Virus record (IMG/VR): IMGVR_UViG_3300045988_164457
Coordinates: 69,216 to 133,215 of that record
DNA from: a virus
Length of the DNA: 64,000 nucleotides
Strand: one strand, 5' to 3'
Shown here: piece after piece, positions 3,355-64,000 of the stretch
Layout: each line of letters opens with the position of its first letter
How positions within the stretch are numbered: the stretch's first letter is position 1
Position numbers and translations under genes: made by a program
The notes under the pieces: model-generated
Seen by the model: the letters and a program-made list of their open reading frames with translations, nothing else
Told to the model about the DNA's origin: nothing
The model's database searches: none

Positions 3355-3373
3355 TTATTATTTACTTATAATT
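3355..3373. promoter_or_regulatory. 19-bp box TTATTATTTACTTATAATT (copy 2)
   Basis: Identical to 3267-3285. Confidence 0.45.
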
Positions 3374-4652: not shown

Positions 4653-5283
4653 TTGTGGAATCTCCTTTCAGTTCTTCATCGTAAACATCAAAATCAAAAA
4701 TAAGATGCTTTCTACTTGCAATATAATCACACAGATGAACACATTTCTGAATGTCTGTTTCGGGAGTAGGAAGTATATCATCTGAATATTTTGATGTATT
4801 CCACTTACCCATATGAGAAGCCACTGCGTCAGAAATTGTCAATACTCTTGTACCAAAATAAAGGTCTAAGGCATTAGTCATACAGTTCATATCATTCTTA
4901 TTAACATATTCTGCGTATTTTTCTAAAATAAAGTATTTCATAAGTATAGGATGATTGAAAACTGTATGATCTTCCCACATACCACACTTTAGCCCATCAT
5001 GAAGAATGAGTGCCGATGTTACAATATCTTTATCGACATCATTGAAATTATAAAAATCTGCCCTAAATAAATCCTGTGCCATTGCAACAGCAGCTTTAGT
5101 GTGTCTGATAAGTCCTCCTTCTCCTATTGTATATGACGGATGATACTTACCACTCGTACTTGCACCAATATGTCTAAAATAATCTGGAAGGTCATCAAGA
5201 ACAAAAGCTGTGAAATCTTTAATTTTACTATCCTTGATAAAACTTAATTCTCTTGTAAAATTTTCTGAATTTGTCATATTCAT
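4645..5283 (-). CDS. HD-domain phosphohydrolase
   Basis: GKYHPS...IRHT and ILHDGLK form an H...HD...D pattern. Confidence 0.7.
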   Translation of the reverse strand: MNMTNSENFTRELSFIKDSKIKDFTAFVLDDLPDYFRHIGASTSGKYHPSYTIGEGGLIRHTKAAVAMAQDLFRADFYNFNDVDKDIVTSALILHDGLKCGMWEDHTVFNHPILMKYFILEKYAEYVNKNDMNCMTNALDLYFGTRVLTISDAVASHMGKWNTSKYSDDILPTPETDIQKCVHLCDYIASRKHLIFDFDVYDEELKGDSTNE

Positions 5284-7556
5284 TCTCCTTCAATTAATAA
5301 ATTATATAACCAAGTTTGACGTGTAAAATTTTCTTTTTTCTTAATTGCTCTACCGAATGTGTTTAAATCACTAAGCAAATAACATCTTTCTTTTGCTCTT
5401 GTAATTGCTACATATAGTAAATTTGAATTAAGCATAAATGTATGTGAATTTGGTGCAAAAACAATAACAATTCTTGCTTGACCACCTTGACTCTTATGAA
5501 TCGAAATTGCATAAGCCAATTTAATGTTGGAAAACTTATCTTTTGGAATATAAATTTTATAATCATCAAAATCAACTATAATGCCATTATAAGTAATGTC
5601 TGAAATAATTCCTATATCTCCATTTGGAATAAGTGTTGTTATATCTTCTTCAGCATTATAATAGTCAGCGTGATTTTCTTGATATATAAATGACTGATAA
5701 TCATTTTTACATTGAATAATAGGATCGCCTATTCTATATTCAACATCTCCAAAAGAAGTTTTCTTTGTAACGTTAGTATTTATCACTGATTGGATTTGAT
5801 TGTTTATTTTTTCTGTACCATAATCACCTTTGTTTTGAGCTACTACAATTAGAATATCCTTTAAGGGAATATTGTTATCTAAGAGTTTTTTATACATTTT
5901 TATAATGTAATCGACTGCTCGTTCAGGTGCAATAGGAATGTAAGTACAGCCTTTATCTTCTCCAACCGTCTGAGTACCTGTTACATTCTGAAAAGTTAAT
6001 TTACTTTCTCTTATATCCGTGGCTACTGTACTCAATCCACCCTTTCCATAACGGAATACTTTTGAAAGCCACACCGTTGGAACAATATTACTATTTAAAA
6101 TATCGTGTAATACATTTCCACAAGATACTGATGGTATTTGAGCATTATCTCCTATGATTAAAAGTTTTGTCCTACTGAAATCAATAGATTCAAGTAAATG
6201 TTTAAATAAAAACACATCTACCATAGAAGTTTCATCAAGAATAACAATATCTTGAGGTAACTTATTCTTTTCATTGTAACACCATTCATTAGGTGGCATA
6301 AATCCTAATCCTCTATGAATAGTGCTTGCCATATGATTGGTATATTTCTGCAATACCTTTGCAGCTCTGCCAGTTGGAGCAAGCAAAATTGCAGTCAAAT
6401 TATTATCATAAAGCATATTCATTAATGCCAATACTGAAAAACTTTTACCACTGCCTGCAAATCCCTGTAAGACAGTTATAGTATTTTCACATACAGATTT
6501 CATAGTTTGCATTTGTTCATCTGTGAGTAACGAATTGTTTATAACACGATATTTCTCTATATCTACATTCCATTTGCGATTAACCTTTAAAGCATTTTTA
6601 AGTGTATCAGCAATATATTTTTCTGTTTCAAATGTATTTGTTTTAGAGATTCTACCCTGTTTCTTATCAAATATTATAGTATCAGATGAATTGATTGCAT
6701 CTGCAAGTTTATCCTTTGCTTCAAGGGCATAAGTCAAACATTCTTTTTGAAACTGTTTGATACTCATATAAGTATTTCCGTTATTTTCATTTTCATCAAG
6801 AACATAAAAGCAACAAGCTTTCATTCTTTCGACAGATGTTAGAAGATCAAATTTAAAATCTATAATTGGCTTCTCTCCATTTTTTACACGTTCTTTAGAT
6901 AATTCATCTATTCGGAGCAAGAGTGCATCTGCTGTTTTAAACCCTATACCTCCTAATTTACATAGACACTCATAAGGTTTAGTATGAAGATTTTCTTTAA
7001 TTTTTTCAATAGATGAATAGGTGTCATATAATTTCTTTATGATAGAAAAACTAAATACTCCTGAAAATTCATCTACTAATTCTGCAAGTTTAAAATTTTC
7101 AATTACCTTTTTCTTTATCTTGGCAAAGGTAACTTCTTTTATGCCTTTAGTTTTATTCAAATCAATATCATTAAGACGATTATTCATTATTCTGTCTATA
7201 ATATCGGGATATACAGCAAGCAGTGTGCTTGCTTGCTGATAAGTTAATATCTCCTGCAAAAAAGCCCTGCTGTTTTCAAGAGTTACTGGCTTTTCGCTTC
7301 TGATATTTATAACTTTATATCCTATACCATATTTATCTTTTTCTTCATCTGCTTTTATGATATATTCACAGTCAAGATTAAGTTCTTGTATATCTCCTTT
7401 TATTGTAACTGTTCCATATTTAGAGACTGCAATATTAGGATATTTAAAACTGTCTATAGTACAACCATAGATTTTAAAATTTTCAGAATTATAAAGACAT
7501 CTTATTGGGATTGCTTTAAATTCTTTTATTTTAGTTAATTTTTCAGAACTTCCCAA
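5280..7556 (-). CDS. RecD-like SF1 helicase
   Basis: Walker A GFAGSGKS, APTGRAAKVL, Walker B ILDETSMVD, IIGDNAQIPSV, SIHKSQGGQ and AITRAKERCYLL. Confidence 0.85.
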   Translation of the reverse strand: MGSSEKLTKIKEFKAIPIRCLYNSENFKIYGCTIDSFKYPNIAVSKYGTVTIKGDIQELNLDCEYIIKADEEKDKYGIGYKVINIRSEKPVTLENSRAFLQEILTYQQASTLLAVYPDIIDRIMNNRLNDIDLNKTKGIKEVTFAKIKKKVIENFKLAELVDEFSGVFSFSIIKKLYDTYSSIEKIKENLHTKPYECLCKLGGIGFKTADALLLRIDELSKERVKNGEKPIIDFKFDLLTSVERMKACCFYVLDENENNGNTYMSIKQFQKECLTYALEAKDKLADAINSSDTIIFDKKQGRISKTNTFETEKYIADTLKNALKVNRKWNVDIEKYRVINNSLLTDEQMQTMKSVCENTITVLQGFAGSGKSFSVLALMNMLYDNNLTAILLAPTGRAAKVLQKYTNHMASTIHRGLGFMPPNEWCYNEKNKLPQDIVILDETSMVDVFLFKHLLESIDFSRTKLLIIGDNAQIPSVSCGNVLHDILNSNIVPTVWLSKVFRYGKGGLSTVATDIRESKLTFQNVTGTQTVGEDKGCTYIPIAPERAVDYIIKMYKKLLDNNIPLKDILIVVAQNKGDYGTEKINNQIQSVINTNVTKKTSFGDVEYRIGDPIIQCKNDYQSFIYQENHADYYNAEEDITTLIPNGDIGIISDITYNGIIVDFDDYKIYIPKDKFSNIKLAYAISIHKSQGGQARIVIVFAPNSHTFMLNSNLLYVAITRAKERCYLLSDLNTFGRAIKKKENFTRQTWLYNLLIEGE

Positions 7557-10500
7557 TGTATCATCACCTTTTCTTTTTCATTTGTTTTTACCCATTTGCC
7601 ATCAATTAATTTGCTTTTATATTTATCATCAAACCAAATATTAAGAATGCTGTTTTCTCTAAATGGTATTGAAGCATATTCATTTGCAGATATTACCTTT
7701 GATTTCATAGTTATGCCTGTTTTTAGATGATAAAGCATAACATAAGGCTTGCATTTGTCCTTATAGACTTTCATTTCAAGAACATAATACAAACTCTCTG
7801 GAGCTTTGGGATTGGCATAATCTATGTATCCAAGTATTTCCTTTTGATATTGAATAGTTTTTATGAGAGAATTTTTTATGTTAGACAAAGAATCCCAATA
7901 CTCATATAATGCTGTATCATAATCAAATTCTCTATATTGCTTTTCAGTTTCCTTAGAATGATTTTTTATTATTTCAGCTATTTCAAAATAGACAGAATTT
8001 TTACTAAACTGTGTTCTTTCATATAAACTGTCAGTCATTTCAATAAACCTGAGTATTCTTTCATTGTTGCCAAAATCAGAGAAATAATTGATTTTTGCCA
8101 AGATTTCAATATGACCTTTATTTATAACAGATGATTTTTTTAATGCTTTCCATATATCATAGAAATTATCAAATTTCATTTGACCTATTGTATATAGTTC
8201 ATCTGCTACCTTTTGGCTCAATCCTTTAATTGATAACAATGAGGGATAGATACAATGATTGTTCTGATCTGCTTTAAATCGTCTATTATCCTCTCCAAAC
8301 TTATATTTCCCCTCTTCAATCTTAAAGCCTTCACGCATTTCTTGTTTCAGCAACATTACTTTATCTTTGTTTCCTTTATCAGAATAATGTTGCAAAAGAA
8401 CTTCGTAAAACTCATAGGGATAATGGGCTTTAAGATAAGCACAGTAAAGAGAATCCAATGCCATACAATAAGCATGAGCTGAATTAAATCCATATCCGCA
8501 AGAATCTGAAATAATTTGCCATACTTTATTGCTCATCTCTATAGCAGTATTTTCATCAACCTTATCATCTGCAATAATTCTTGCCTTAAATCCATCTATA
8601 AACCTGCTTTTTAAAGGTTTAACCTTTTCAGGATGCTTTTTTGCGATAGCTTTGATAATTCCATAACATTCATCAAGAGGAAATCCAGCATAGTTTAATG
8701 TATTCATTGTCTGTTCCTGATAAAGAATAAACGATTGTGGAAATTCAGGTGTCTGCAAAATATTATCAAATGCCTTAATTCCATATTCAAAATGCTCTCT
8801 TGTTTCAAATTTTGAATACATTGATTTAAAAGCTGGACGTATCGCTGCAATAAAAGCTGCTAACTCAGATATATTCTGAGGCTTGAATTTCATTGCTTTT
8901 TTAGTAGTAGATTGTTTTTCACACTGATTTATTCCAATCGTCAAGCCCGATGAATAAATATTCCATACCTTTTCATCATTTTTTACAAGTTCGGTAAGTT
9001 CATTTACAGTATGATGTTTAATGCCTATTCTTTTGTAAAGATTATTTATTAACAAAACCACATCTACTTTAAGCAGGTCATTTTTGAGAAATTTATATTT
9101 TTCAGCTATTGCACCATCAATTACAGTAGTTATATATTCTTTCTTTGTAGTATCACTTTTACACTTTATAAGTCCTACTTCAGAACGAATATCTCCTTGA
9201 TATAATAAATATGCACAGGGTGCTTTCTTTTTATCTGAAATAATTCCCCAATATTTTTTGCTTTGGTCAAGATAGTTATGATAATTTTTATCTACATAAT
9301 CATAAATATCAATCATATCCTTATCTTCATCGTCAGCATTTTTATATGCTTCTTCATAATCTCCAATTTGCTTGGAAATGTTATTTGCTAATTCAGCTTC
9401 CATATTCATTGCTCTTGAATACATCTTAAAAGCAGCTTTCTTTTTCAAAGTTCCAAAAGCAATCATAGGGTATGCGTGACCTTTACCGAGAATTTCTTCT
9501 TGCGCTTCTGCAAATATTTCAGGATTGCCACAGTTCAGATCAAGATCGGGAAGTGATCTCGTTTCAAGAATACGGCTTTCAGAAATAAATCTTTCAGGAT
9601 AAAGTTTTATAGGAGACTTAAATCTATCTACTTTACTGAATCCACAAAGAGTATTTGTAAAATAGCCAACTCCAGAACCTCTTCCCGTATCTGTAATAAG
9701 TCCACCCTTTTCAATAGCTCTTTTTACTATCTGATAATCTATCAAAGGATAGTCCACCATTTTTGTTTTTTTATAAACATCAACTTCTTGCTGAACGCTT
9801 GTGATATACTTTTTCTTTTCTTCAACCGAAAAATCTTTTATATATTCTTTAAGTTTTGAAGCAATAAGTTTTGTATAAAGTTTGTTGCGTTCTTCTTGTG
9901 TTTTATTTGGATATATTGTAGGTAACTTTATATCATCAGTTAAAATTATATCATCAAAAGTTAGACAAATATCAGTATTATCCATAGCAGTTTGAATTTC
10001 TTCTTTGGTAAAAACACCTTGTTCAAGAAATCTCTGCATTATTGTATTGTCATCAGGATAATCCATATACCAGCCTTCTTCATCCTCATAAAAGACTTTA
10101 TTGGCTTCAAGCAGATTTTGTCTATCTTCTGACTGTTCAGGATAGATATAATGACTATCAAGCCCCACAATCATTTGAATATCATTGTTATAAGCAATTT
10201 TCTTTATCTTTTTATTTAAGGCAATTTGTTGTGGTGTATTATGATATTGAATTTCAAGCATTAAATTATTCTGAAAGTGTTCTTTTAATTTTAATACAAT
10301 TTCTTCAATGTCATCATACTTCCAAAAGGCTATACAAGCTGTTGTAATAAACACATCATTAGATGGTAAAGAAAAGAGTAAATCTAAATCAAGGCGAGGT
10401 CTAAAATAATATCCTGTTTCATTGGCTTCAGATAGAACTTCGTTAATTGCTCTTCTGCCATTTTCATTTTTAGCAAGAATAATTATATGACAATTTGTCT

Positions 10501-10744
10501 TATCTTTTTCAGCCCTATCTTTTACCCAATACGCTTCTGCACCAAATACAAACTTTAAATTGTATTTTTTTGCAAGTTCAAATGTTTGATAATAATATCC
10601 TTGCCAACCGTGTTCAACACTTGATATTATTTTATGACCTACTTCTACTGCTCTTTTTGCATAATCTTCATTCATTACTGCACTATCTGCAATATAAATA
10701 TTGCTATAAGAAGAATGTCTATGATAGTTCTGCAATTTATTCAC
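7535..10744 (-). CDS. DNA polymerase III alpha-type (DnaE-like) replicase with N-terminal PHP domain
   Basis: YHRHSSYS PHP start, TGRGSGVGYF and LPDLDLNC palm motifs. 1069 aa. Confidence 0.85.
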   Translation of the reverse strand: MNKLQNYHRHSSYSNIYIADSAVMNEDYAKRAVEVGHKIISSVEHGWQGYYYQTFELAKKYNLKFVFGAEAYWVKDRAEKDKTNCHIIILAKNENGRRAINEVLSEANETGYYFRPRLDLDLLFSLPSNDVFITTACIAFWKYDDIEEIVLKLKEHFQNNLMLEIQYHNTPQQIALNKKIKKIAYNNDIQMIVGLDSHYIYPEQSEDRQNLLEANKVFYEDEEGWYMDYPDDNTIMQRFLEQGVFTKEEIQTAMDNTDICLTFDDIILTDDIKLPTIYPNKTQEERNKLYTKLIASKLKEYIKDFSVEEKKKYITSVQQEVDVYKKTKMVDYPLIDYQIVKRAIEKGGLITDTGRGSGVGYFTNTLCGFSKVDRFKSPIKLYPERFISESRILETRSLPDLDLNCGNPEIFAEAQEEILGKGHAYPMIAFGTLKKKAAFKMYSRAMNMEAELANNISKQIGDYEEAYKNADDEDKDMIDIYDYVDKNYHNYLDQSKKYWGIISDKKKAPCAYLLYQGDIRSEVGLIKCKSDTTKKEYITTVIDGAIAEKYKFLKNDLLKVDVVLLINNLYKRIGIKHHTVNELTELVKNDEKVWNIYSSGLTIGINQCEKQSTTKKAMKFKPQNISELAAFIAAIRPAFKSMYSKFETREHFEYGIKAFDNILQTPEFPQSFILYQEQTMNTLNYAGFPLDECYGIIKAIAKKHPEKVKPLKSRFIDGFKARIIADDKVDENTAIEMSNKVWQIISDSCGYGFNSAHAYCMALDSLYCAYLKAHYPYEFYEVLLQHYSDKGNKDKVMLLKQEMREGFKIEEGKYKFGEDNRRFKADQNNHCIYPSLLSIKGLSQKVADELYTIGQMKFDNFYDIWKALKKSSVINKGHIEILAKINYFSDFGNNERILRFIEMTDSLYERTQFSKNSVYFEIAEIIKNHSKETEKQYREFDYDTALYEYWDSLSNIKNSLIKTIQYQKEILGYIDYANPKAPESLYYVLEMKVYKDKCKPYVMLYHLKTGITMKSKVISANEYASIPFRENSILNIWFDDKYKSKLIDGKWVKTNEKEKVMIHWEVLKN

Positions 10745-20417: not shown

Positions 20418-20502
20418 TGGTACTCCCAGACGGATTCCAACCGTCACACCTTTCGGTACTTGATTTTGAGTCAAGCGTGTCTTGCAATTTCACCATAGGA
20501 GC
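20418..20502 (-). tRNA. tRNA-Leu (anticodon CAA), class II with long variable arm
   Basis: Hand-folded cloverleaf of 85 nt with encoded CCA. The T-loop is TTGGAAT and the D-loop lacks GG. Confidence 0.8.
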
Positions 20503-20661
20503 AGATGAGTGCCTGATTATCCTCACAGGCTTTTGGGCGGTTCATTCTAAAGTTTATCCTCATCCGCTAAAACCACAAAGTCGCTATCCGTCTCGTGAAC
20601 TACTCGCCTACTCTTGTTCTACAAACAACCCTAATGTTGCTGTTTTCTCCAATTTCAGATT

Positions 20662-20738
20662 TGGTCTCCCAAGTGGAACTCGAATCCACACTGTCAGAAT
20701 TTTAAGTTCTGTGTCTCTGCCGATTGGACTATTGGGAG
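20662..20738 (-). tRNA. tRNA with anticodon TAA but class I (short variable loop) structure
   Basis: Hand-folded, 77 nt: acceptor CTCCCAA/TTGGGAG, anticodon loop CTTAAAA, T-loop TTCGAGT, A73 and CCA encoded. Confidence 0.7.
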
Positions 20739-20948
20739 ATATTTAAACCACTTAGCAGGTTTTTCATCCGCTCAAAGTCGCTATTTGTTAATATGAAACC
20801 TCATATTCGATTTTTAGTGCCAACAGAATACGACTTGTTATTACTGTTCAGACACTTAATACATATTTAATGAAATATCAGCGCCAACTGATACGACAAA
20901 ATATGTATTAGGTTGGAGACACCTTGACGGTATCAATCCTCGCACCAA

Positions 20949-21022
20949 TGGTACACCATATCGGTTCTGCCCCGATGTTTAACGATTAAAAGTCGTTTGT
21001 TCTACTATTGAACTAATGGTGC
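20949..21022 (-). tRNA. tRNA-Lys (anticodon TTT), non-canonical D and T loops
   Basis: Hand-folded, 74 nt with CCA encoded. The T-loop is GGCAGAA (no TTC) and the D-loop is AATAGTA (no GG). Confidence 0.55.
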
Positions 21023-21093
21023 TTATTCCTGACTTTTTATACGGAAGTCAGTGAAACCGTTTATGGAGGTTATACCAGAATGAAACTAACATT

Positions 21094-21167
21094 TGGTTGG
21101 GACACTCTGATTTGAACAGAGGATCACGGAGTCAAATTCCGATGCCTTACCACTTGGCTATGCCCCA
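21094..21167 (-). tRNA. tRNA-Gln (anticodon TTG)
   Basis: Hand-folded, 74 nt: D-arm GCCAAGTGGTAAGGC, T-loop TTCAAAT, CCA encoded. Confidence 0.85.
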
Positions 21168-30303: not shown

Positions 30304-30400
30304 CAAAAGTAATTGGAAGACTCATACACCCCTTTTCTACGTATTACTTACAGCAGTTTGACTACCTACAGAGGAGGGGATTTGTATAAAGGTTTTGATT

Positions 30401-30433
30401 GTCGCACCCCATGTGGGGCGTGTGAGTTGAAAT
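30401..30433 (+). CRISPR. solitary CRISPR-repeat-like unit A (type I-C-like architecture)
   Basis: GTCGCACCCCATGTGGGGCGTGTGAGTTGAAAT. No partner repeat within 200 bp on either side. Confidence 0.65.
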
Positions 30434-30594
30434 TTGATTATGTATCGGATTACCTACTATATCTATTATACTGCAATGCAGATAATAAATCAAGTCGATT
30501 TAGTGCGATTTTCAAATTTTATATATAACATGGGATAATACATTACATTGGCAACTATCCTTTCTATTTTTATTACTATAAATGAGGTGTTCTT

Positions 30595-32037
30595 ATGTTA
30601 GTCTTCACAACAACATTTCCCATTTCAAATAACTTATCTGTCGAAAGTTTTATAAATCTCGCTGTCGAATGGGTTTCAAATTCCAAATCCAAATACAATT
30701 TTGATGATTTTATATGGAATGGGTCAACAACTTTTTCAGTAACGGATATGTCTGGAAATGTTGAACTATCCATAAACACAATCAACGAAACACAGACCGT
30801 AGCTATCAGATTAAAAAATCTTGATGGGTCTATTGAATGGATAAGTGACTTTATTATGACAAACAATCATATTTCTGTTCAACTTCAACGAAATTCAACT
30901 GACAATGCAGATTATATTCCAAAATTTCATATTCCATATTTTTTAAGAATGATTTTAGGAAAAAACTATGGCGGATGCGATAATTGTTTAAACATCAGTA
31001 CCTCTCCTACTATTATAACAGAAAAAAATATATCTATAATTGTAGATATAATTAATTCAGGTAGTTTATATAAACTCCCGATTGTGTATATATCTCGACA
31101 AATGCCGGGAGATTATAGCATAGATGCTAATCAAATGGCACGTAAACTTGCTGGAATAGCACATATCTTAGTTGAAAACGATACGTCAGTATCAAGATTG
31201 CTTCAAGAAAAAACATCAAGTGCCAATCCATACAATGGAGCAATTCAAGTATATTACCCAAAGAATTTTACTAAAAGATTTATCCCTGAATATTTTTATT
31301 CTCGAAAAGAAATGCAAGATAGCATTATTAGTTTTATAAGTGAACGTAATCTTCAAATGAAAATTGATGAACAGTATCAATATTATTATGTAACGCAACG
31401 CATTCTTAACAATAAGCGATTAGAAGCGGAAAAGAAACATAAACAATCTGAAAACGATATTGACTCATTGACTGAAATGTATGATGCACTTGAAAAACAA
31501 TACCAAGCTCTCAAAGAGGAACAGGAACATTTAAGTTCTGAATTAAATGATTCCAAGGCCAAAACTATATTTTTGCAAGATCAAGTTATGGAATTAAAAG
31601 AAAAATTAGATCAACAAACCAATGACCAAAACACACCTTTAATATATCATGGTGATGAACCTGATTTATATACAGGTGAACAACACGATATTCTTTTAGC
31701 AGTACTTGCCGATGCTTTAAACAAAATTATTCCCAATGATACACCCTCCTCTCGCAGACACGATGTAATCAATTCTATTTTAAAACAAAACAAACCAATC
31801 GGTGTGTTAAATAACAAATTAGAAGTTGTTAATCAAGTTTTTAAACATTCCAAATTAACCAAACAAGATATTGTTGAATTACAAAAAATCGGATTATGTC
31901 TTACTTCGGACAAAAACCATTATAAATTTACATTTATGAACAAGCCATGTTATTATACTACAGTTTCTAAAACAGCAAGTGATATAGGACATGGAAACAA
32001 AAACACAGCTAATCAAATAAAGAGGTCATTCTTTTAA
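30595..32037 (+). CDS. hypothetical 480-aa protein: N-terminal globular domain, central coiled coil, C-terminal domain
   Basis: GAGGTG RBS. A heptad-rich QSENDIDSLTEMYDALEKQYQALKEEQEHLSSELNDSKAK segment. No catalytic motif recognised. Confidence 0.7.
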   Translation: MLVFTTTFPISNNLSVESFINLAVEWVSNSKSKYNFDDFIWNGSTTFSVTDMSGNVELSINTINETQTVAIRLKNLDGSIEWISDFIMTNNHISVQLQRNSTDNADYIPKFHIPYFLRMILGKNYGGCDNCLNISTSPTIITEKNISIIVDIINSGSLYKLPIVYISRQMPGDYSIDANQMARKLAGIAHILVENDTSVSRLLQEKTSSANPYNGAIQVYYPKNFTKRFIPEYFYSRKEMQDSIISFISERNLQMKIDEQYQYYYVTQRILNNKRLEAEKKHKQSENDIDSLTEMYDALEKQYQALKEEQEHLSSELNDSKAKTIFLQDQVMELKEKLDQQTNDQNTPLIYHGDEPDLYTGEQHDILLAVLADALNKIIPNDTPSSRRHDVINSILKQNKPIGVLNNKLEVVNQVFKHSKLTKQDIVELQKIGLCLTSDKNHYKFTFMNKPCYYTTVSKTASDIGHGNKNTANQIKRSFF

Positions 32038-32421
32038 TCTTACTAAGGTATCTCTTGCAAATTCTAAGTAAGGTCTTTCAAATATCCTATAACAAATGAT
32101 TGGGTTATCATATTCATTTGTACAGATATTAATCGCCCCGATTGTTAATGTATGATTAGATAATTCAAGCGGTATCCCCCATTTAGCTAAAATATCCACA
32201 TCGGTGGTCAGCTTTACATAACATCCAAATGGTAACAAGTCATCTTCGTTCATTATTAAGTCGTAGTTGGACGGAACACCTGTTAAGTCATAATATTTTT
32301 TAACGGCATCCGTTAAAGTTATATGCTTGTGTTCTGCGATTTTTGTGACGATCTCAAGATAATTCATACTCTTGGGGTCAACACTTAAATCAACTTCGTT
32401 GTTGAAATACGCTCTGTTCAT
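32026..32421 (-). CDS. hypothetical protein
   Basis: 131-aa ORF convergent with, and 12 nt overlapping, the 480-aa gene. Served by the M2 leftward promoter. Confidence 0.6.
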   Translation of the reverse strand: MNRAYFNNEVDLSVDPKSMNYLEIVTKIAEHKHITLTDAVKKYYDLTGVPSNYDLIMNEDDLLPFGCYVKLTTDVDILAKWGIPLELSNHTLTIGAINICTNEYDNPIICYRIFERPYLEFARDTLVRLKE

Positions 32422-54751: not shown

Positions 54752-57547
54752 ATGAGACAGATATATACACTGAAATTTAAATCTTCGCTTCTGAAGGAAT
54801 TTGGGTATAAAATTAATATGGAATTTGATGAAGCTAAAAAATTAAAATGTGTAATTGCATTGGCTGATAGTCAGATGCTTCGTACAATAAGAGAAGTCCG
54901 TGGGCAGGTTATTGATTTTGATAAGGTTGAGGGATTATATACAGACAGAGAAATTTATAATAAAAAGCTTTCAAATTCAAAATCTCTTGGAAAAGATGAC
55001 ATTGAAAAGATTGTTGCTAACAGAAACAAAGTACAATCTGAAATAGACGATATGCTATATGTAAAAGATTATGTAACTATCGTTATGGAAAGCACAAAAG
55101 ATTATGATTATATTTGTGAAAATGGCGTTGAAATAAACGGCAAGGTTTATCACAGGTTGAGTTGTTCTGCTGGACAAGCTCGTAAATCAACTATTGTGGT
55201 TTGTCCAGATGATATTATTGATGAAGTAATTCACAGACTTGATAATGACAGAAACAAGAATATTCCTCTCGCTGCAAGTAAATATAATGCCTATTTTGGA
55301 CTTAGCAGTTCTGCAACTCAGGTTGTAAGTGAACCAAAGTTTATTGTAGTTAAAGATTTTGAAAATACCGATACCTTTGACGTACATTTTGTAACTGAGA
55401 TAGCAGGAAACACCGATGATTTAGTAGAAGATAAGACCGTTACACAGACTTTTAACAGAACTGACGGAATGGGACTTATATCTCCAAGACAGGCTAAGAA
55501 ATGGGCTAATGAGTTAGGATTAGATTATATACCCTCACAATTTGGATTAAGGCAAAGCTTTATAAAGGGTATGCTTTGTACGTTCCCCATTCACGAATTT
55601 TGTGAAGAAATAAACGGTGGCAATTACATAGTAGATACGATTTATAAAGATGAAAGTGGAAATTATATAAAAGTTGATCTTCGAGATTACGACATTATTA
55701 TTTCTGAATCGCAGTTTAAGCTTTGGAATTGTTATAATGGTGTCGATGATTACCTTGAAAAATGCCACAAAAACGGTTTGAAATGGGGTATTCCCCAGTA
55801 TGCACCTAAAGAGTGTAAAAACATTCTAAAGATGAATTACCAGTTCTTACAGACTTTGAACTTGAACGAAACTGACATAAAGGAACTATGCAAGCCTTTT
55901 GTTGATTGGATAACGGGTGTTTCATATGATAACTTTGAATATATGTTACTGTTTTTACTTGGAGTAAATAATACAGAAGAAAGCATAAACAATTTTTTGA
56001 GAAGCAGTGATAATTATTGGTTAAAGTCACTTGTAGTAAATCCCGATTTGAAGAATGATAAATTTATTCGTACAAAAATAAGGGATTTGATAAAGAACAA
56101 AATAAAAAAAGGCTGTATGGGTGATATTTATGTTAAGGGTAATTTTCAGACTTTAGTATCTGACCCATATGCTTATATGCAACACGTTTGTGGTATTGAA
56201 CCCGCAGGATTGCTTGATAAAGATGAATTTTATTCAAACTATTGGAATGAACGTAATGTAGCACAAGTAGACGGTATGAGGTCTCCCCTTACTTTCAGAT
56301 CGGAACACGTTGTTATGAATTTAAAAAAGAATGCTGAAACCGAGAAATGGTACAGGTATTGCAAAACTGGCATTATAATAAATTGGTTTGGTCATACAGT
56401 GCAGAATTTCGGGGGTGCAGATTTTGACCTTGATATTTTAGCAACAACGTCTGACCCTACAATTATTAAGGGTGTTTACAGAAATGAATTAACAATGACG
56501 TATGATGCTCCAAAGCCTGAAAAGAAAATTTTTTCAAAAGAAGATATTCAGAATGCCGACAAGTTTGGTTTTGGTTCAATTATTGGTCAAATAACAAATA
56601 AGAGTAGTAATGCTTACGCTTTACTTAAAGAAATTGAAGATAAATATGGCAAAGATAATGATATGTGGAGAATTACATATTCAAGGTTAATCCAGTGCTG
56701 TAAAGCACAGAGCTGTCAGATTGATAAGACTAAACTGGGACGAGAGGTTAAGGGTATTCCAAAATTATGGGTTGAATATCGAAAAACTGATGATAAAACG
56801 GCTGAAAAGAACAGCTATACGCCAGAGGATATAGAGAAAATAAGGTTTTATAATAGTATTCTTCTTGACAAATATCCATATTTCTTTAGATACAGATACC
56901 CTGATTGTAAGAAGAAGTATGATAAATATGTTGATAGCAATGAAACAGCTTGCAAACAGCGTTTTGGTATTTCCTTAAAGTCTTTAATTGATTTAAGTCA
57001 AAAGACCCCAGAACAAATGACTTTCTTAGATAATTATTATAAGTATATGCCTGTTACAATGAGCGATAGTTCAATGAATTTGCTTTGTAAATACATAGAG
57101 GGTGTCAACTTTGAAATTTCAAAAAAAATCAAAGAAGAAACACTAAGCGAGTTCCTTCCAACATTAAAATATGATGTAGAATATAATAAATCTGAATATA
57201 ATACTGTATCAGATATTATAGATGAATGTTTGCTCTTATATAGAGAAGTACAATTTGAAAACGCTGAGAAGGACAAGGATAACCGAGAAATTTTTGATTT
57301 TTCAAAATACACCTCAGAAATCATACTTGCAATAGGAAGTGTTGAGAAGGCTTTAAACTATGTGATTGATTATTTTTACATCAATAATCCAAAAAAGAGT
57401 AAAGACATTATGTGGGAAATGTTTGGCAGATACATTTACACAAGAATAAAAAAAGATATTTCTACTGTAATATTTCCGATGCCTGATAAAAATGGTAATA
57501 TTACATATTTGGGTGAAAACTATTCTGTACAGGAGGTTGAAATATGA
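54752..57547 (+). CDS. candidate single-subunit two-barrel RNA polymerase (SPbeta YonO-like)
   Basis: 931 aa. GGADFDLDIL resembles the NADFDGD/DxDxD catalytic loop of two-barrel RNAPs. HU-like gene lies downstream, as with yonN-yonO in SPbeta. Confidence 0.55.
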   Translation: MRQIYTLKFKSSLLKEFGYKINMEFDEAKKLKCVIALADSQMLRTIREVRGQVIDFDKVEGLYTDREIYNKKLSNSKSLGKDDIEKIVANRNKVQSEIDDMLYVKDYVTIVMESTKDYDYICENGVEINGKVYHRLSCSAGQARKSTIVVCPDDIIDEVIHRLDNDRNKNIPLAASKYNAYFGLSSSATQVVSEPKFIVVKDFENTDTFDVHFVTEIAGNTDDLVEDKTVTQTFNRTDGMGLISPRQAKKWANELGLDYIPSQFGLRQSFIKGMLCTFPIHEFCEEINGGNYIVDTIYKDESGNYIKVDLRDYDIIISESQFKLWNCYNGVDDYLEKCHKNGLKWGIPQYAPKECKNILKMNYQFLQTLNLNETDIKELCKPFVDWITGVSYDNFEYMLLFLLGVNNTEESINNFLRSSDNYWLKSLVVNPDLKNDKFIRTKIRDLIKNKIKKGCMGDIYVKGNFQTLVSDPYAYMQHVCGIEPAGLLDKDEFYSNYWNERNVAQVDGMRSPLTFRSEHVVMNLKKNAETEKWYRYCKTGIIINWFGHTVQNFGGADFDLDILATTSDPTIIKGVYRNELTMTYDAPKPEKKIFSKEDIQNADKFGFGSIIGQITNKSSNAYALLKEIEDKYGKDNDMWRITYSRLIQCCKAQSCQIDKTKLGREVKGIPKLWVEYRKTDDKTAEKNSYTPEDIEKIRFYNSILLDKYPYFFRYRYPDCKKKYDKYVDSNETACKQRFGISLKSLIDLSQKTPEQMTFLDNYYKYMPVTMSDSSMNLLCKYIEGVNFEISKKIKEETLSEFLPTLKYDVEYNKSEYNTVSDIIDECLLLYREVQFENAEKDKDNREIFDFSKYTSEIILAIGSVEKALNYVIDYFYINNPKKSKDIMWEMFGRYIYTRIKKDISTVIFPMPDKNGNITYLGENYSVQEVEI

Positions 57548-60582: not shown

Positions 60583-61752
60583 ATGATTGAATATAAAAGA
60601 TTTGATGGCGAAACAGATGATGCTTTGATTCTGAGAATTTGCCGAGATAAAGATATTATTGGTAGTTGGGAAGATGTTTGTGAAATTCTAAACAATTTGC
60701 TTGGCGCAAATTATCGTCCTAATACATATAGAAATAGATTTCAGAATTATGATAAATTTCGTCAGGCTGATTTAGGAACAACTGAAAGTTCTTTACTTGA
60801 AGAAATTAAGGAACAGAGAAAAGAACTTGAAAAAGAACGTATTAAGTTTCGTGATGAACGTAATGAATATAATCGCATTATAAGAGAGGAAGCAAGAAAA
60901 GAATCGTATATTGATATGGTAAAGCGTATGTTATCTGATTACGCTCCCAAGTCATTAAATTACACTACTCCTCCGTCTTATAAATCTGATACAGACATGG
61001 TTCTTGTAGTTTCTGATCTACATTGTGGAATTGAAATAAATCATTATTTAAACCATTTTAATTCTGATATTTTGGCTGATAGATTTGTTACTTGTATTAG
61101 CAAGGTTATAGAAATACAGAACAGGCATCAGTCTGAAAATATTACTGTGCTTATTTCAGAAGTAATAAGTGGTCTTATTCACGAGAATTTAAGATGTGAA
61201 AATAATGAAAATATAATTGAGCAGTTTCTTACTGTGACACAGTATCTTAGTGACCTCCTAACTGAGTTTTCTAAACATTTCAACAATGTTGAAGTGCTTG
61301 TTATGCCGGGAAATCACAGTCGGGTCACACCTAAGAAGGAAAGTAGTTTAAAGGGTGAAAACATAGATAATCTGCTTGTCCCCTATTTGAGTGCTGTTTT
61401 ACAGAATATAAGCAATATTCATTTTCATAAAAACAATATTGATGAAAGTATTGCTATGTTTTCTGTAAGAAATAATACTATTTATGCTGTACACGGAGAT
61501 AAAGATACGCCAAATAATGTAGTTCAAAATCTCACAATGCAGTATGGTATTTGCCCCAAACTTATTTATATGGGTCATCGTCACAAGAATAGTATGGAAA
61601 CTGTTTATAATACAAAGGTCATTTCAGCAGGTTGTTGGTCTGGCGTAGATAACTATGCTATTGATAATAGATATAACACACGTCCTGAGACGGTGCTGTC
61701 TGTTATTAATGAAAATGGTCTTGTATGTAACTATGATATTAAGTTAAATTAA
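60583..61752 (+). CDS. calcineurin-like metallophosphoesterase
   Basis: VVSDLHCG, GNHS, VHGD and GHRH motifs in the canonical order. Confidence 0.75.
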   Translation: MIEYKRFDGETDDALILRICRDKDIIGSWEDVCEILNNLLGANYRPNTYRNRFQNYDKFRQADLGTTESSLLEEIKEQRKELEKERIKFRDERNEYNRIIREEARKESYIDMVKRMLSDYAPKSLNYTTPPSYKSDTDMVLVVSDLHCGIEINHYLNHFNSDILADRFVTCISKVIEIQNRHQSENITVLISEVISGLIHENLRCENNENIIEQFLTVTQYLSDLLTEFSKHFNNVEVLVMPGNHSRVTPKKESSLKGENIDNLLVPYLSAVLQNISNIHFHKNNIDESIAMFSVRNNTIYAVHGDKDTPNNVVQNLTMQYGICPKLIYMGHRHKNSMETVYNTKVISAGCWSGVDNYAIDNRYNTRPETVLSVINENGLVCNYDIKLN

Positions 61753-61777: not shown

Positions 61778-62059
61778 ATGACAAAGGCTGAATTTATTAC
61801 AAAGGTTAGAGAGAACTCAGAGCTTTCTAAGGCACAGATTGATGAGGTACTTACAGTGATTCTTGATACTATTGTTGATAGTGTTGCAGCTGGCGAGAAG
61901 GTCAATTTCGTTGGCTTTGGTTCTTTTGAAAAGCACAAGAGAGCCGCAAGAACAGGCGTAAATCCCTCTACAGGAAAGCCTATTGAGATAGCAGAGAAGA
62001 ATGTACCTGCTTTTAAGGCAGGTAAGATGTTCAAGGATACAGTTGCTGAAAGTAAGTAA
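61778..62059 (+). CDS. HU/IHF-family DNA-binding protein
   Basis: MTKAEFI...VNFVGFGSFEKHKRAARTGVNPSTGKPIEI...PAFKAGK. 93 aa. Confidence 0.85.
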   Translation: MTKAEFITKVRENSELSKAQIDEVLTVILDTIVDSVAAGEKVNFVGFGSFEKHKRAARTGVNPSTGKPIEIAEKNVPAFKAGKMFKDTVAESK

Positions 62060-62075
62060 TATTTGAGGTGATTTT

Positions 62076-62459
62076 ATGTTAAAGGTAAAGTCTCATAATA
62101 CATATCTTACAACGGAAATGCTGATTGGTGATATTATTAATGATGTCAAACGCAAGCTAAACGTGTCTGTAGTAGTACAGGGAGATATTGTGAAGCCGAT
62201 TATAAAGGCAATGATGAATATTGACGACATTGATATTCAGCTTCTTGACTATGATTTTTACGATTATGGCGGTGAATATTATATTGATGTCATTTGGCAC
62301 GATAATATTCCTGAACTTTGGGTCGAGAAGGCTTGGAATGATGAAACAAAGAGATATCTTGGCGGTGAAGCCGATTTTTATTATGTAGCTTCTGATATTA
62401 GCACGAATATGTATAATTATCTTGATGGTCTTGGAACTGTTTTCTCTATCGAAGAATAA
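62076..62459 (+). CDS. hypothetical protein
   Basis: 127-aa ORF with a GAGGTG RBS. Confidence 0.55.
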   Translation: MLKVKSHNTYLTTEMLIGDIINDVKRKLNVSVVVQGDIVKPIIKAMMNIDDIDIQLLDYDFYDYGGEYYIDVIWHDNIPELWVEKAWNDETKRYLGGEADFYYVASDISTNMYNYLDGLGTVFSIEE

Positions 62460-62470
62460 TTAAATGTTAA

Positions 62471-62506
62471 GACGGTGGGTTGCAATAGTAACTCACTGTC
62501 TTTTTT
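62471..62506 (+). terminator. intrinsic terminator
   Basis: gacggtgggtt...aactcactgtc (two G-U pairs) followed by tttttt. Confidence 0.65.
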
Positions 62507-62538
62507 ATTTATGCCTTACAAGAAGTCAACCAACCTTA

Positions 62539-62566
62539 TTGGACGTCTGGGGCAGACGTTTATAAT
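62539..62566 (+). promoter_or_regulatory. promoter upstream of tRNA(CAT) and the long non-coding region
   Basis: TTGGAC-16-TATAAT. Confidence 0.55.
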
Positions 62567-62697
62567 TACGTCTATAAATAATATGTCAGGTTTTTATATC
62601 GCTTAGTAGGCATATCAGCGAAGCGGTCACATTTTATAATGTGTGATTGGTGGGCTTGGTTTAGAGTTATCCAAGTGATATGACAAAACTCTTTTAT

Positions 62698-62771
62698 GGC
62701 GAGTTGGTCTAATGGTAGGATTAGGGTCTCATAAACCTTAGATTTACGTTCAAGTCGTAAGCTCGCACCCA
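62698..62771 (+). tRNA. tRNA with anticodon CAT (Met, fMet or Ile2 identity unresolved)
   Basis: Hand-folded, 74 nt: D-arm GTCTAATGGTAGGAT, anticodon loop CTCATAA, T-loop TTCAAGT, CCA encoded. Position 1-72 is a G-A mismatch. Confidence 0.75.
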
Positions 62772-64000
62772 ATAGTAAAAATCACTGTCAATGAAGGTTT
62801 TTGTAATAACCATCGTGAGTGTACGATTATATTATGGTCAAATTTAATCAGATGCCTCAAATTATGATGATTATAGTTTTTGGCGTTATACATAGCTATG
62901 AGCATTTGTATTAACAATAGTTGACAAAGTGTTTGACCAACACTATTCGTCTGATGACAAGGATAAGAGTAAATGGATATGATGCCTTGTAAAAACTTTA
63001 TTCTAACGTGTGCAATAAACCTATTAAGATTATCCATTCGAGATAGTACGAATAGAATAGACATACTGAAGTAATTGGATTCTGATTTATCAGAATGGGC
63101 GTTTATAAGTATGTTATATGTAAACACAGATTTAATACGTTTGTGTTTACACCAAGTAGGCAGTTCTCGATAATCTGCTGTTAGTAGCTCTGTCTGCGGA
63201 CAACTGAGGTCAAAGTAGATATGCGTATCAAAATGACTAAATCAAATATGAAGTGAAACCAACACTCTTTAAATAAATGGTAAAAACGGAAAATATAAAA
63301 CAATAATAAACTTGTTTGTAAGAAAGATGCTTGCATTTTCCCATTTTCACTACCGTTTGTGAAGTTTATTCGTCCAGTCGAGGGTGGAATGACGTTAAAC
63401 TCTACCCTACCATAATGGTTCTGAGAAAATAATTATCAGAATTATGTTTACAATAACCCCGATGAAAACGGTTGTCAACCTTTCGGGACACGATTATAAT
63501 GAATGTTTATGGAATGATAGTTTTATAAGCAAGTCAACTTTGTATTATGAAAGTATGCAAGATGAGAGGAAAATCCTCAAATTTAGTTGTGGTGCTAAGA
63601 GTTATCGCTTCAAAAAGCACAGAACTTATCGCTGTGGTAATAGACGCTTCTGTGAAGAATAAGCCTTATACTAACGAGTGGAATCGCAAAGTCACTAAGG
63701 TAATCCAAAAGAACACAGTCTGTTTTGATGCTTGAGAAATCAAGCTATAAGGTAAGTCGCTGGTAAAAGTAGCCATATGACAGTATTGGGAACAAATCTT
63801 TTTTTTGTAATGATTTTAAAGAAAATTTCAAATGCTGAATGACTGGTGAAATTTGTGTATAACCAATTACACGCAAGCTTTGAGAGTAATCTACGGTAAG
63901 AAGCTATAGGGTCGCTACCTATAGTTCAGCCTTATCGTCTTGGTGGCTGAATATTGAAGAAGATAATGGAGGTACGGCGAAGGTCGTATTGCAGGCATAA
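62772..64000 (+). ncRNA. candidate large structured non-coding RNA (truncated by window end)
   Basis: More than 1.2 kb without an RBS-supported ORF, visibly more GC-rich than its surroundings. Many local hairpins, e.g. 63079-63096, 63120-63150, 63904-63924 and 63925-63951. Directly downstream of a tRNA. Confidence 0.35.

What the first reader, a model, noticed from the sequence alone, without database searches (positions are those of the whole stretch)
62539..64000. Promoter, then tRNA(CAT), then more than 1.2 kb of hairpin-rich non-coding sequence: possible large ornate ncRNA (GOLLD/ROOL-like context)
Seen: after a terminator (62471-62506) and a TTGGAC-16-TATAAT promoter comes a 74-nt tRNA, then sequence to the window end in which the three or four ORF-track entries lack RBSs and overlap each other on both strands. 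This stretch is visibly less AT-rich than neighbouring intergenic DNA. It contains many clean local helices: 63079-63096, 63120-63150 (9 bp), 63904-63924 and 63925-63951. Known: the giant structured RNAs GOLLD and ROOL occur in Firmicute prophages, frequently adjacent to tRNA genes. Inference: this may be a member of, or analogous to, that class. I cannot verify the consensus by eye, and the element is truncated at 64000.
Basis: partly seen in the sequence, partly recalled or inferred. Interest (0 to 1): 0.65.

Follow-up and report, generated by a model that had tools for sequence, protein, structure and literature searches.

The report
ROOL RNA beside a phage tRNA
The last 560 bases of the window are a clear copy of ROOL, a known large "ornate" phage RNA that builds hollow RNA cages and has no known function; it lies downstream of a phage tRNA gene, and the 670 bases between them are variable spacer, not part of the RNA.

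Summary
Rfam's ROOL model (RF03087) matches window 63439-64000 at 313 bits (threshold 99), E 4e-71, over the whole model. Identical contigs show that the RNA spans 63434-64005, so the window loses only about 5 nt. Sister phages support the consensus fold: 28 base pairs change on both sides, against about 6 in shuffles. The embedded ORFs are broken in those phages.

The tRNA-Met(CAT) at 62698-62771 and the terminator at 62469-62502 are real. The 667 nt between tRNA and ROOL are not part of ROOL. They are a patchwork of three insertions (186, 379 and 88 nt) that sister phages lack; there the spacer is 196-579 nt. The proposed promoter lies inside one of these optional insertions.

The host element is an SPbeta-like prophage that is common in human-gut metagenomes. 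The tRNA-ROOL cassette lies between homologues of yonJ and yonG, that is, inside what in SPbeta is the late operon transcribed by YonO. Three sister phages have lost ROOL cleanly and one carries a truncated copy, so ROOL is dispensable.

This is a textbook member of a known family. The new information is its context and the natural ROOL-minus alleles. ROOL's function remains unknown.

The parts
62469..62508 (+). Intrinsic terminator of the HU / 127-aa gene pair (15-bp hairpin plus T-run)
   Evidence: Found by the scan. The hairpin keeps pairing through a U-A to C-G change between alleles. In short alleles the tRNA starts 2-3 nt after the T-run.
62506..62691 (+). modA: a 186-nt optional insertion.
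   Evidence: Present in the window and in L001-L008, L010, L026 and L031. Absent in L011-L014, L016, L020, L028 and L035-L037. The -35 box matches 3 of 6 and is not listed by the promoter scan. The exact 26-mer occurs only at this locus in IMG/VR.
62698..62771 (+). tRNA-Met(CAT), elongator-like, with CCA encoded; G1.A72 mismatch in this allele
   Evidence: ARAGORN and Rfam tRNA at 43.4 bits. It has U11-A24 and only two G-C pairs in the anticodon stem, so it is not initiator-like (read). Sister alleles have U1-A72.
62773..63151 (+). modB: a 379-nt optional insertion. It ends in a 12-13-bp hairpin with a 7-nt loop followed by (A)CCA (63120-63153).
   Evidence: Absent together with modA in short alleles. 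There is no Rfam hit at E<=1. Folding z-score is -2.6. The 125-aa minus-strand ORF has no family hit. The exact 24-mer occurs only at this locus in IMG/VR.
63152..63282 (+). Spacer segment shared by all alleles that carry tRNA type 1. Only 63246-63282 is kept in alleles with other tRNAs.
   Evidence: blastn block structure.
63283..63370 (+). modC: an 88-nt optional insertion that folds as an imperfect long hairpin
   Evidence: Present only in the window, L001, L002, L026 and the L014-type alleles. Fold.
63371..63433 (+). Conserved leader in front of ROOL. It is kept even in ROOL-less alleles and holds a weak sigma-A-like site, ATGACG-16-CATAAT (63389-63416).
   Evidence: Present in every allele. 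Promoter-like match of 9/12.
63434..64000 (+). ROOL RNA (Rfam RF03087). It continues to about 64005 beyond the window end. The closing helix P1 pairs 63440-63455 with 63987-64002.
   Evidence: Scores 313.1 bits, E 4e-71, model 1-574/574. Relatives' hits start 5 nt earlier and end 5 nt later, and L001/L002 are 100% identical and continue past 64000. 119 of 151 consensus pairs are canonical. 28 pairs covary.
63779..63831 (+). Variable internal linker of ROOL (the disordered, cage-interior linker in solved ROOLs)
   Evidence: Substitutions and indels among alleles pile up here. The linker is described in PMC12286853.
63720..63783 (+). Candidate ROOL pseudoknot: 63720-63724 (CUGUU) pairs with 63779-63783 (GACAG)
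   Evidence: All 15 variants pair here. The terminal pair is seen as U.G, U-A and C-G. The two segments match complementary uGcc / Ggca segments of the Rfam consensus line.

Best explanation
**Shown**
- Window 63434-64000 (plus 5 nt beyond the window) is a complete gene for ROOL RNA. It lies 667 nt downstream of a phage tRNA-Met(CAT) gene, on the same strand.
- The element is an SPbeta-like prophage from human-gut metagenomes.
- The cassette sits between homologues of yonK/yonJ/HU and yonG...yonB.
- The ROOL fold is under purifying selection in this phage lineage.
- The interval between tRNA and ROOL is a mosaic of optional insertions and is not part of ROOL.
- The whole ROOL core has been lost cleanly in some sister phages.

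**Inferred from solved ROOLs (env-120, E. faecalis, L. salivarius)**
- The roughly 570-nt RNA folds into the flat multi-junction monomer closed by P1.
- It self-assembles without protein into a hollow hexameric or octameric cage, with the variable linker facing the interior.

**Inferred from synteny with SPbeta**
- By analogy, the tRNA and ROOL here are made mainly during lytic growth. In short alleles they would be part of a long transcript that reads through the terminator at 62469-62502, which abuts the tRNA.
- The transcript would then be cut by tRNA-processing enzymes and trimmed back to the stable P1 helix.
- A weak conserved sigma-A-like site (63389-63416) may add ROOL-specific transcription.

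**Role**
ROOL acts in trans as an accessory, non-essential phage RNA. Its molecular task is not known; encapsulation or sequestration of a translation-related partner is the leading published idea.
For: **Identity**
- ROOL scores 313.1 bits against a gathering score of 99.1, over the full model. It and the tRNA are the only Rfam hits at E<=1 in 62400-64000.

**Structure**
- 119 of 151 consensus pairs are canonical.
- In 15 distinct alleles, 28 pairs change on both sides, against 5.8+-1.7 in shuffles and 1-8 in slid controls. 79% of cells are paired, against 33-47% when slid.
- The close-allele set alone gives 6 such pairs, against 0-1 when slid.
- A pseudoknot candidate covaries.
- Variation clusters in the linker.

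**Not coding**
-.

**Context**
- Pfam names YonK, YonJ_N, YonG_N, YonD_N and YonB appear in SPbeta order, with an RdRP-type YonO homologue upstream.
- The SPbeta late operon starts upstream of yonK (PMC5467207).
- In short alleles the tRNA starts 2-3 nt after the terminator T-run, which leaves no room for a promoter.
- There is no plus-strand terminator after ROOL.

**Dispensability**
- L009 and L015 keep only the two P1 halves. L025 is a precise loss between 11-nt direct repeats. L008 is truncated. The distant relative L017 lacks the cassette.

**Cage assembly and tRNA/phage association of the family**
- PMC12286853, PMC12990946 and PMC5737381.
Against: - There is no expression data for this locus.
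- The late-operon placement rests on synteny with a phage whose proteins are below 35% identical. The YonO promoter of this phage is unknown.
- YonO's insensitivity to hairpin terminators is inferred from its missing flap domain, not measured.
- The oligomeric state cannot be read from sequence: solved ROOLs are hexamers or octamers.
- The CM alignment leaves a few helices poorly paired in this lineage (helices 9, 21 and 25). At least one of these is a register shift.
- The window allele has an A.C mismatch in P1.
- The function of ROOL is unknown for the whole family.
Confidence: 0.85

Rival explanations
1. The whole stretch from the tRNA to the window end (about 1.2 kb) is one giant structured RNA, larger than ROOL, for example a ROOL with a long structured 5' domain as GOLLD has.
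For: modB folds somewhat better than shuffles (z -2.6) and the stretch has several clean hairpins. There is no convincing ORF.
Against: - Sister phages with an intact ROOL that scores equally well have spacers of only 196 or 283 nt and lack modA and modB.
- There is no Rfam hit at E<=1 in the spacer.
- The z-scores of the other spacer parts are -2.0 and -1.0.
- The ROOL model is matched end to end, with its own closing helix.
Confidence: 0.04
2. modA-tRNA-modB is an autonomous tRNA expression cassette. modA would supply a promoter (TTGGAC-16-TATAAT) and modB would end in a tRNA-minihelix-like hairpin plus CCA that serves as a processing or stop signal. The long alleles would then express the tRNA (and ROOL) independently of upstream genes.
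For: - modA and modB always occur together around the same tRNA.
- There is a perfect -10 hexamer with 16-nt spacing (read).
- The hairpin 63120-63150 has 12-13 bp, a 7-nt loop, then A-CCA.
- Short direct repeats lie at the module borders: TCTTTT(T)AT and CACC(C)AA(G)TAG.
Against: - The -35 box is poor (3 of 6) and not called by the scan.
- The alleles are 99% identical, so there is no covariation or conservation test.
- The hairpin lacks a U-tract.
- Neither module is found anywhere else in IMG/VR.
- The modules may simply be junk insertions or the ancestral state.
Confidence: 0.2
3. The region encodes small proteins: the 125-aa minus-strand ORF 62750-63127, or the 72-aa and 62-aa plus-strand ORFs inside 63444-63735.
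For: The ORFs exist. Gene callers in public assemblies called the 62-aa ORF in some contigs.
Against: - There are no Pfam or PHROGs hits.
- The 125-aa ORF overlaps the tRNA and is deleted in short alleles.
- The 72-aa ORF has stops in L034 and L035 and frameshifts in L014 and L038. The 62-aa ORF loses its start and has a stop at codon 8 in L034.
- Substitutions are spread evenly over codon positions, while RNA pairs covary.
Confidence: 0.02
4. The ROOL copy is a decaying relic with no present function in this phage.
For: ROOL has been deleted or truncated in 4 of 29 sampled contigs. The window allele has an A.C mismatch in P1. ROOL is more divergent than its flanks.
Against: Nearly all substitutions at paired sites keep pairing. 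28 pairs change on both sides, even in an allele only 77% identical that scores 328 bits. Changes concentrate in the known variable linker.
Confidence: 0.06

Closest known systems
ROOL RNA (Rfam RF03087; Weinberg et al. 2017, PMC5737381; cryo-EM structures of env-120, E. faecalis and L. salivarius ROOLs, PMC12286853 and PMC12990946)
   Same: - Full-length match to the covariance model at three times the gathering score.
- Length of about 570 nt, against a family mean of 581 nt.
- A closing P1 helix, multi-junction architecture and conserved single-stranded motifs (AAUAGACGC, GUGGUGC, CUGAAUGA..GGUGAAA, GCUGAAUAU, GGCGAAGG).
- A variable internal linker.
- Prophage location next to a tRNA gene.
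   Different: - Nothing defining differs.
- The specifics of this lineage are new: an SPbeta-like phage of the human gut, a position inside the presumptive YonO late operon, a long insertion-ridden spacer to the tRNA in this allele, and natural ROOL-less sister alleles.
- The oligomeric state (hexamer or octamer) is unknown.
GOLLD RNA (the other phage-associated giant cage-forming RNA)
   Same: Prophage and tRNA-adjacent context. GOLLD env-38 also lies downstream of a tRNA-Met. Expression of a GOLLD rises during phage-induced lysis.
   Different: The sequence and fold are unrelated. There is no GOLLD hit at E<=1 in 62400-64000.
Late operon of Bacillus phage SPbeta transcribed by YonO (PMC5467207)
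   Same: The order of homologues is the same: YonO ... YonK, YonJ ... YonG ... YonD ... YonB. SPbeta's YonO transcript also begins with an unannotated non-coding RNA upstream of yonK.
   Different: - Protein identities to isolated SPbeta-like phages are below 35%.
- The three isolated SPbeta-related phages scanned, phiCD211, Staphylococcus SPbeta-like and Alicyclobacillus MMB025, have no ROOL at this position. SPbeta itself was not scanned.
- HU lies after YonJ here.

Membership tests
ROOL RNA (RF03087) | Score at or above the curated gathering threshold of the covariance model, over the whole model | tested here: met
   313.1 bits against 99.1, E 3.8e-71, model 1-574/574. Alleles score 309-328 bits.
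ROOL RNA (RF03087) | Nested multi-junction secondary structure closed by P1, supported by compensatory changes | tested here: met
   119 of 151 pairs are canonical. 28 pairs have changes on both sides, against 5.8+-1.7 in shuffles and 1-8 when slid. P1 is 98% paired across alleles.
ROOL RNA (RF03087) | Size near the family mean of 581 nt | tested here: met
   572 nt (63434-64005). The family mean is from PMC5737381.
ROOL RNA (RF03087) | Internal linker with little sequence or structure conservation | tested here: met
   Indels and substitutions among alleles cluster at 63779-63831. The linker is described.
ROOL RNA (RF03087) | Pseudoknots (three predicted in 2017; P10 and P13 seen by cryo-EM) | tested here: inconclusive
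   The CM does not model pseudoknots. One candidate (63720-63724 with 63779-63783) pairs in all 15 alleles with U.G, U-A and C-G states. The others were not located.
ROOL RNA (RF03087) | Phage or prophage location, often near tRNA genes | tested here: met
   SPbeta-like prophage. tRNA(CAT) lies 667 nt upstream, or 196-579 nt in sister alleles.
ROOL RNA (RF03087) | Protein-free self-assembly into a hexameric or octameric cage through kissing loops and A-minor contacts | not testable with these tools
   This needs cryo-EM, SEC-MALS or native gels of the transcript. The inter-chain contacts could not be mapped without the solved sequences.
   cmscan of 62400-64000 against all 4227 Rfam families at E<=1 returns only ROOL and tRNA.
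tRNA | Cloverleaf with an anticodon loop, detected by two independent tools | tested here: met
   ARAGORN tRNA-Met(cat) of 74 nt with encoded CCA. Rfam tRNA at 43.4 bits against 29. The 1:72 position is G.A in this allele and U-A in the short alleles.

The most novel reading that the evidence does not exclude
The tRNA(CAU)-ROOL unit may be a hot-swappable accessory cassette inside the YonO-transcribed late operon of a very common human-gut SPbeta-like prophage. Three observations point this way.

- Three different tRNA(CAU) genes alternate at one slot that abuts a terminator.
- ROOL diverges faster than its flanks yet keeps its fold.
- ROOL has been excised cleanly in some sister phages.

On this reading ROOL is released from a terminator-read-through late transcript by tRNA-type processing. 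That would explain why giant phage RNAs sit next to tRNAs. The natural ROOL+ and ROOL- sister phages would give a near-isogenic system for finding ROOL's function.
Probability: 0.3. Interest if true: 0.55.

Novelty: already known. Interest (0 to 1): 0.3.

Why it matters
ROOL is one of the few giant bacterial or phage RNAs. It forms protein-free cages larger than a ribosome, and nobody knows what it does.

This copy adds no new kind of molecule. It does place ROOL in a defined and widespread human-gut prophage, at a defined position in a late-gene cluster whose model relative (SPbeta) is genetically tractable. It also reveals natural alleles with and without ROOL, and with different tRNA(CAU) partners.

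These alleles are useful material for a functional test: compare induction, burst size, host range and defence evasion between ROOL+ and ROOL- phages. As a scan result it is a correct call of a known family.

Tried and rejected
- **Isolated-phage DNA search.** blastn of 62460-64000 against 50,697 isolated-phage records, in near and distant modes, found nothing. The YonJ-like protein finds only relatives below 35% identity.
- **Host identification.** Both genome-contig scans were empty, one with the YonJ-like protein and one with the leader DNA pattern. The host species stays unknown.
- **Integrative island at the tRNA.** I looked for att-like direct repeats of the tRNA 3' end around the adjacent tyrosine recombinase. 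None was convincing.
- **modA and modB as mobile repeats.** Exact 24- and 26-mers occur only at this locus in IMG/VR. There are no copies elsewhere in the window.
- **Decayed tRNAs in the spacer.** There is no tRNA or other Rfam hit at E<=1. ARAGORN at a relaxed threshold finds only the one tRNA.
- **Folding z-scores as evidence for structure.** These are uninformative: ROOL itself scores only z -1.7, and the spacer parts score -1.0 to -2.6.
- **ROOL in other SPbeta-like phages.** phiCD211, Staphylococcus SPbeta-like, Alicyclobacillus MMB025, MT836002 and L017 have none at the syntenic position.
- **Mapping of the cryo-EM inter-chain contacts** onto this sequence was not done, because the solved sequences and the Rfam pseudoknot annotation were not available to the tools.

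Full report
**1. What is in the sequence**

- A 15-bp hairpin with a T-run at 62469-62502 ends the upstream gene pair.
- ARAGORN and Rfam both call a 74-nt tRNA-Met(CAT) at 62698-62771.
- Downstream there are only short ORFs that overlap on both strands.
- TTGGAC-16-TATAAT is present at 62539-62566, but its -35 box matches only 3 of 6 positions and it is not among the sites the promoter scan lists.
- GC content (31-37%) is no different from the neighbouring coding DNA.

**2.

cmscan of the whole window against Rfam 15 gives ROOL (RF03087) at 63439-64000, plus strand. The score is 313.1 bits against a gathering score of 99.1, E 3.8e-71, over model positions 1-574 of 574. A permissive scan of 62400-64000 (E<=1, all 4227 families) returns only ROOL and the tRNA. 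That rules out GOLLD, HEARO, OLE, group I/II introns and any hit in the 667 nt between tRNA and ROOL.

Contigs L001 and L002 are 100% identical to the window and continue past 64000. In sister alleles the ROOL hit begins 5 nt earlier and ends 5 nt later. The RNA therefore spans 63434-64005. Its 16-bp closing helix pairs 63440-63455 with 63987-64002, so the window removes only 5 nt.

**3. Is the fold real in this lineage?**

I mapped the Rfam consensus structure onto the window. This gave 151 pairs, of which 119 are canonical. I then collected alleles of the same locus from public assemblies, IMG/VR and JGI/ENA metagenomes.
- In 11 close alleles (mean column identity 94%), 6 pairs change on both sides, against 0-1 when the partner columns are slid.
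- Adding more alleles, including one only 77% identical that still scores 328 bits (L034), gives 28 pairs with changes on both sides. Column shuffles give 5.8+-1.7 and slid controls give 1-8.
- In that larger set 79% of cells are paired, against 33-47% when slid.
- Substitutions and indels concentrate at 63779-63831. This corresponds to the unconserved linker that is disordered inside the cage in the cryo-EM structure.
- A candidate pseudoknot (63720-63724 with 63779-63783) pairs in all alleles through U.G, U-A and C-G states.
- The two ORFs inside ROOL carry stops or frameshifts in L014, L034, L035 and L038, and their substitutions fall evenly on the three codon positions.

**4. The 667 nt between tRNA and ROOL are not part of ROOL**

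blastn block comparison and alignment of alleles show the following mosaic.

| Segment | Coordinates | Length | Distribution among alleles |
|---|---|---|---|
| tRNA module | 62692-62772 | 81 nt | all alleles with tRNA type 1 |
| modB | 62773-63151 | 379 nt | optional |
| shared segment | 63152-63282 | 131 nt | alleles with tRNA type 1 |
| modC | 63283-63370 | 88 nt | optional; hairpin-forming |
| leader | 63371-63433 | 63 nt | every allele |

- The tRNA-to-ROOL distance is 196, 283, 579 or 667 nt in different alleles, all with equally good ROOL hits.
- modA and modB are always present or absent together. Their exact 24- and 26-mers occur nowhere else in IMG/VR.
- In short alleles the tRNA begins 2-3 nt after the terminator's T-run. 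No promoter can lie between them, so the tRNA must be transcribed by read-through.
- The conserved leader carries a weak sigma-A-like site, ATGACG-16-CATAAT, at 63389-63416.
- No plus-strand terminator follows ROOL in L001.

**5. Allelic turnover of the cassette**

- Three different tRNA(CAU) or tRNA-like genes occupy the same slot. All end in ...CGCACCCA.
  - Type 1 is the window's tRNA.
  - Type 2 is in L009 and L015 and scores 60 bits.
  - Type 3 is in L025, L032, L034 and L038. It is a cloverleaf with a CAU anticodon but aberrant D- and T-loops, and it is missed by ARAGORN and by Rfam at the gathering score.
- ROOL is intact, or running off a contig end, in 25 of 29 sampled contigs.
- In L009 and L015 the core is replaced by 21 nt, leaving only the two halves of P1.
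- In L025 ROOL is lost exactly between the 11-nt direct repeats (AAAATAATTAT) that flank it in L004-type alleles.
- In L008 ROOL is cut at 63571.
- A more distant relative (L017, 67% YonJ identity) has neither tRNA nor ROOL.
- ROOL is 92.7-97.8% identical among phages whose flanks are about 99% identical.

ROOL is thus an accessory, dispensable element, yet its structure is conserved where it is present.

**6. Genomic setting**

- The genes upstream on the same strand are a YonO-type single-subunit RNA polymerase (Pfam RdRP, 54752-57547), a ClpP-like protease, PhoH, a YonK-like protein, a YonJ-like exonuclease (60583-61752), HU (61778-62059) and a 127-aa protein of unknown function.
- Downstream, depending on the allele, come an Abi_alpha gene on the other strand, a tyrosine recombinase, then YonG, YonD and YonB homologues.
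- This is the SPbeta gene order. Protein identity to isolated relatives is below 35%. Those relatives are Bacillus, Staphylococcus and Clostridioides SPbeta-like phages and Alicyclobacillus phages.
- The 127-aa protein occurs in 448 blocks of the public assembly collection, on contigs up to 515 kb from human-gut cohorts.
- By synteny, the tRNA-ROOL cassette lies inside that late transcription unit. This is an inference, not a measurement.
- Three isolated SPbeta-related phages scanned (phiCD211, Staphylococcus SPbeta-like, Alicyclobacillus MMB025), together with MT836002 and L017, have no ROOL there.

**7. How it most likely works**

The family facts come from the literature.
- ROOLs average 581 nt, occur in phages and prophages near tRNAs, and are not known to need protein partners (PMC5737381).
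- Env-120 and E. faecalis ROOL form D4 octameric cages about 280 Å wide. L. salivarius ROOL forms a hexamer. The variable linker faces inward.
- ROOL is as abundant as 16S rRNA in one L. salivarius strain, yet non-essential. Its function is unknown (PMC12286853 and PMC12990946).

For this locus I commit to the following model.
- The tRNA and ROOL are expressed mainly in the lytic cycle, as part of the late transcript.
- The tRNA is excised by RNase P and RNase Z.
- ROOL is trimmed to its P1-closed core and self-assembles into a cage.
- The cage acts in trans on some translation-related partner.

Its non-essentiality is shown by the natural deletions. The expression mode and the cage are inferred.

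**8. Comparison and verdict**

Every testable defining feature of ROOL is met. Only the pseudoknots (partly) and the self-assembly could not be tested.

This is a member of an already known family that a standard Rfam annotation would label. The additional value lies in the context (SPbeta-like late operon, human gut) and in the natural ROOL+ and ROOL- alleles and the alternative tRNA(CAU) alleles.

Noticed in passing
window 54752-57547 (+): A 931-aa protein matches Pfam RdRP PF05183 (E 6.5e-12) and phrog_8308 (E 3e-143). It is a YonO-type single-subunit, two-barrel RNA polymerase, which marks the element as SPbeta-like.
   Followed up: partly
L009/L015 7931-8005; L025, L032, L034, L038 (segment between the terminator and ATGAAGTGAA): Three different tRNA(CAU) genes alternate at the slot in front of ROOL. 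The third type has a full cloverleaf and a CAU anticodon, but its D-loop is AGUCAGAA and its T-loop is GGCAGAG. ARAGORN and Rfam at the gathering score both miss it.
   Followed up: partly
window 63120-63153 (+): A hairpin of 12-13 bp with a 7-nt loop is followed by A-CCA at the end of the optional 379-nt insertion. This is the geometry of a tRNA acceptor/T-arm minihelix, so it could be a processing signal or chance.
   Followed up: no
L041 9168-10861 (Staphylococcus phage SPbeta-like NC_029119, record 30352-32045): A 1.7-kb stretch directly after the HU-YonK-YonJ genes has no annotated gene, no ORF of 80 aa or more, and no Rfam hit. It is syntenic with the tRNA-ROOL slot and could hold an undescribed large RNA.
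   Followed up: partly
window 20418-21167 (-): A cluster of four tRNA genes: Leu-CAA, Leu-TAA, one tRNA at 20952-21022 seen only by Rfam, and Gln-TTG.
   Followed up: no
window 1359-2288 (-), 3372-4652 (-), 5280-7556 (-), 7535-10744 (-): The phage encodes an RNA ligase (PF09414), an ATP-dependent DNA ligase, a RecD2-like helicase and a DnaE-type polymerase III alpha subunit. An RNA ligase together with phage tRNAs hints at tRNA repair or counter-defence.
   Followed up: no
L038 5925-5985 (-): A RAGATH-18 RNA hit (RF03064, 57.4 bits against 44.9) lies about 4.3 kb upstream of ROOL in one sister phage. The window has no such hit at the gathering score.
   Followed up: no
L001 12052-12201 (+), 12198-13049 (-), 13347-14375 (+): Just beyond the window end come a 49-aa hydrophobic ORF, an oppositely oriented Abi_alpha (abortive-infection-type) gene with its own terminator abutting ROOL's 3' end, and a tyrosine recombinase in the middle of the late-gene cluster. 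The content of this island differs between alleles.
   Followed up: partly
window 63472-63500 (+): The best sigma-70-like match of the region, TTGTCA-17-TATAAT (11 of 12), lies inside the 5' domain of ROOL. It is probably a by-product of the RNA's sequence.
   Followed up: no
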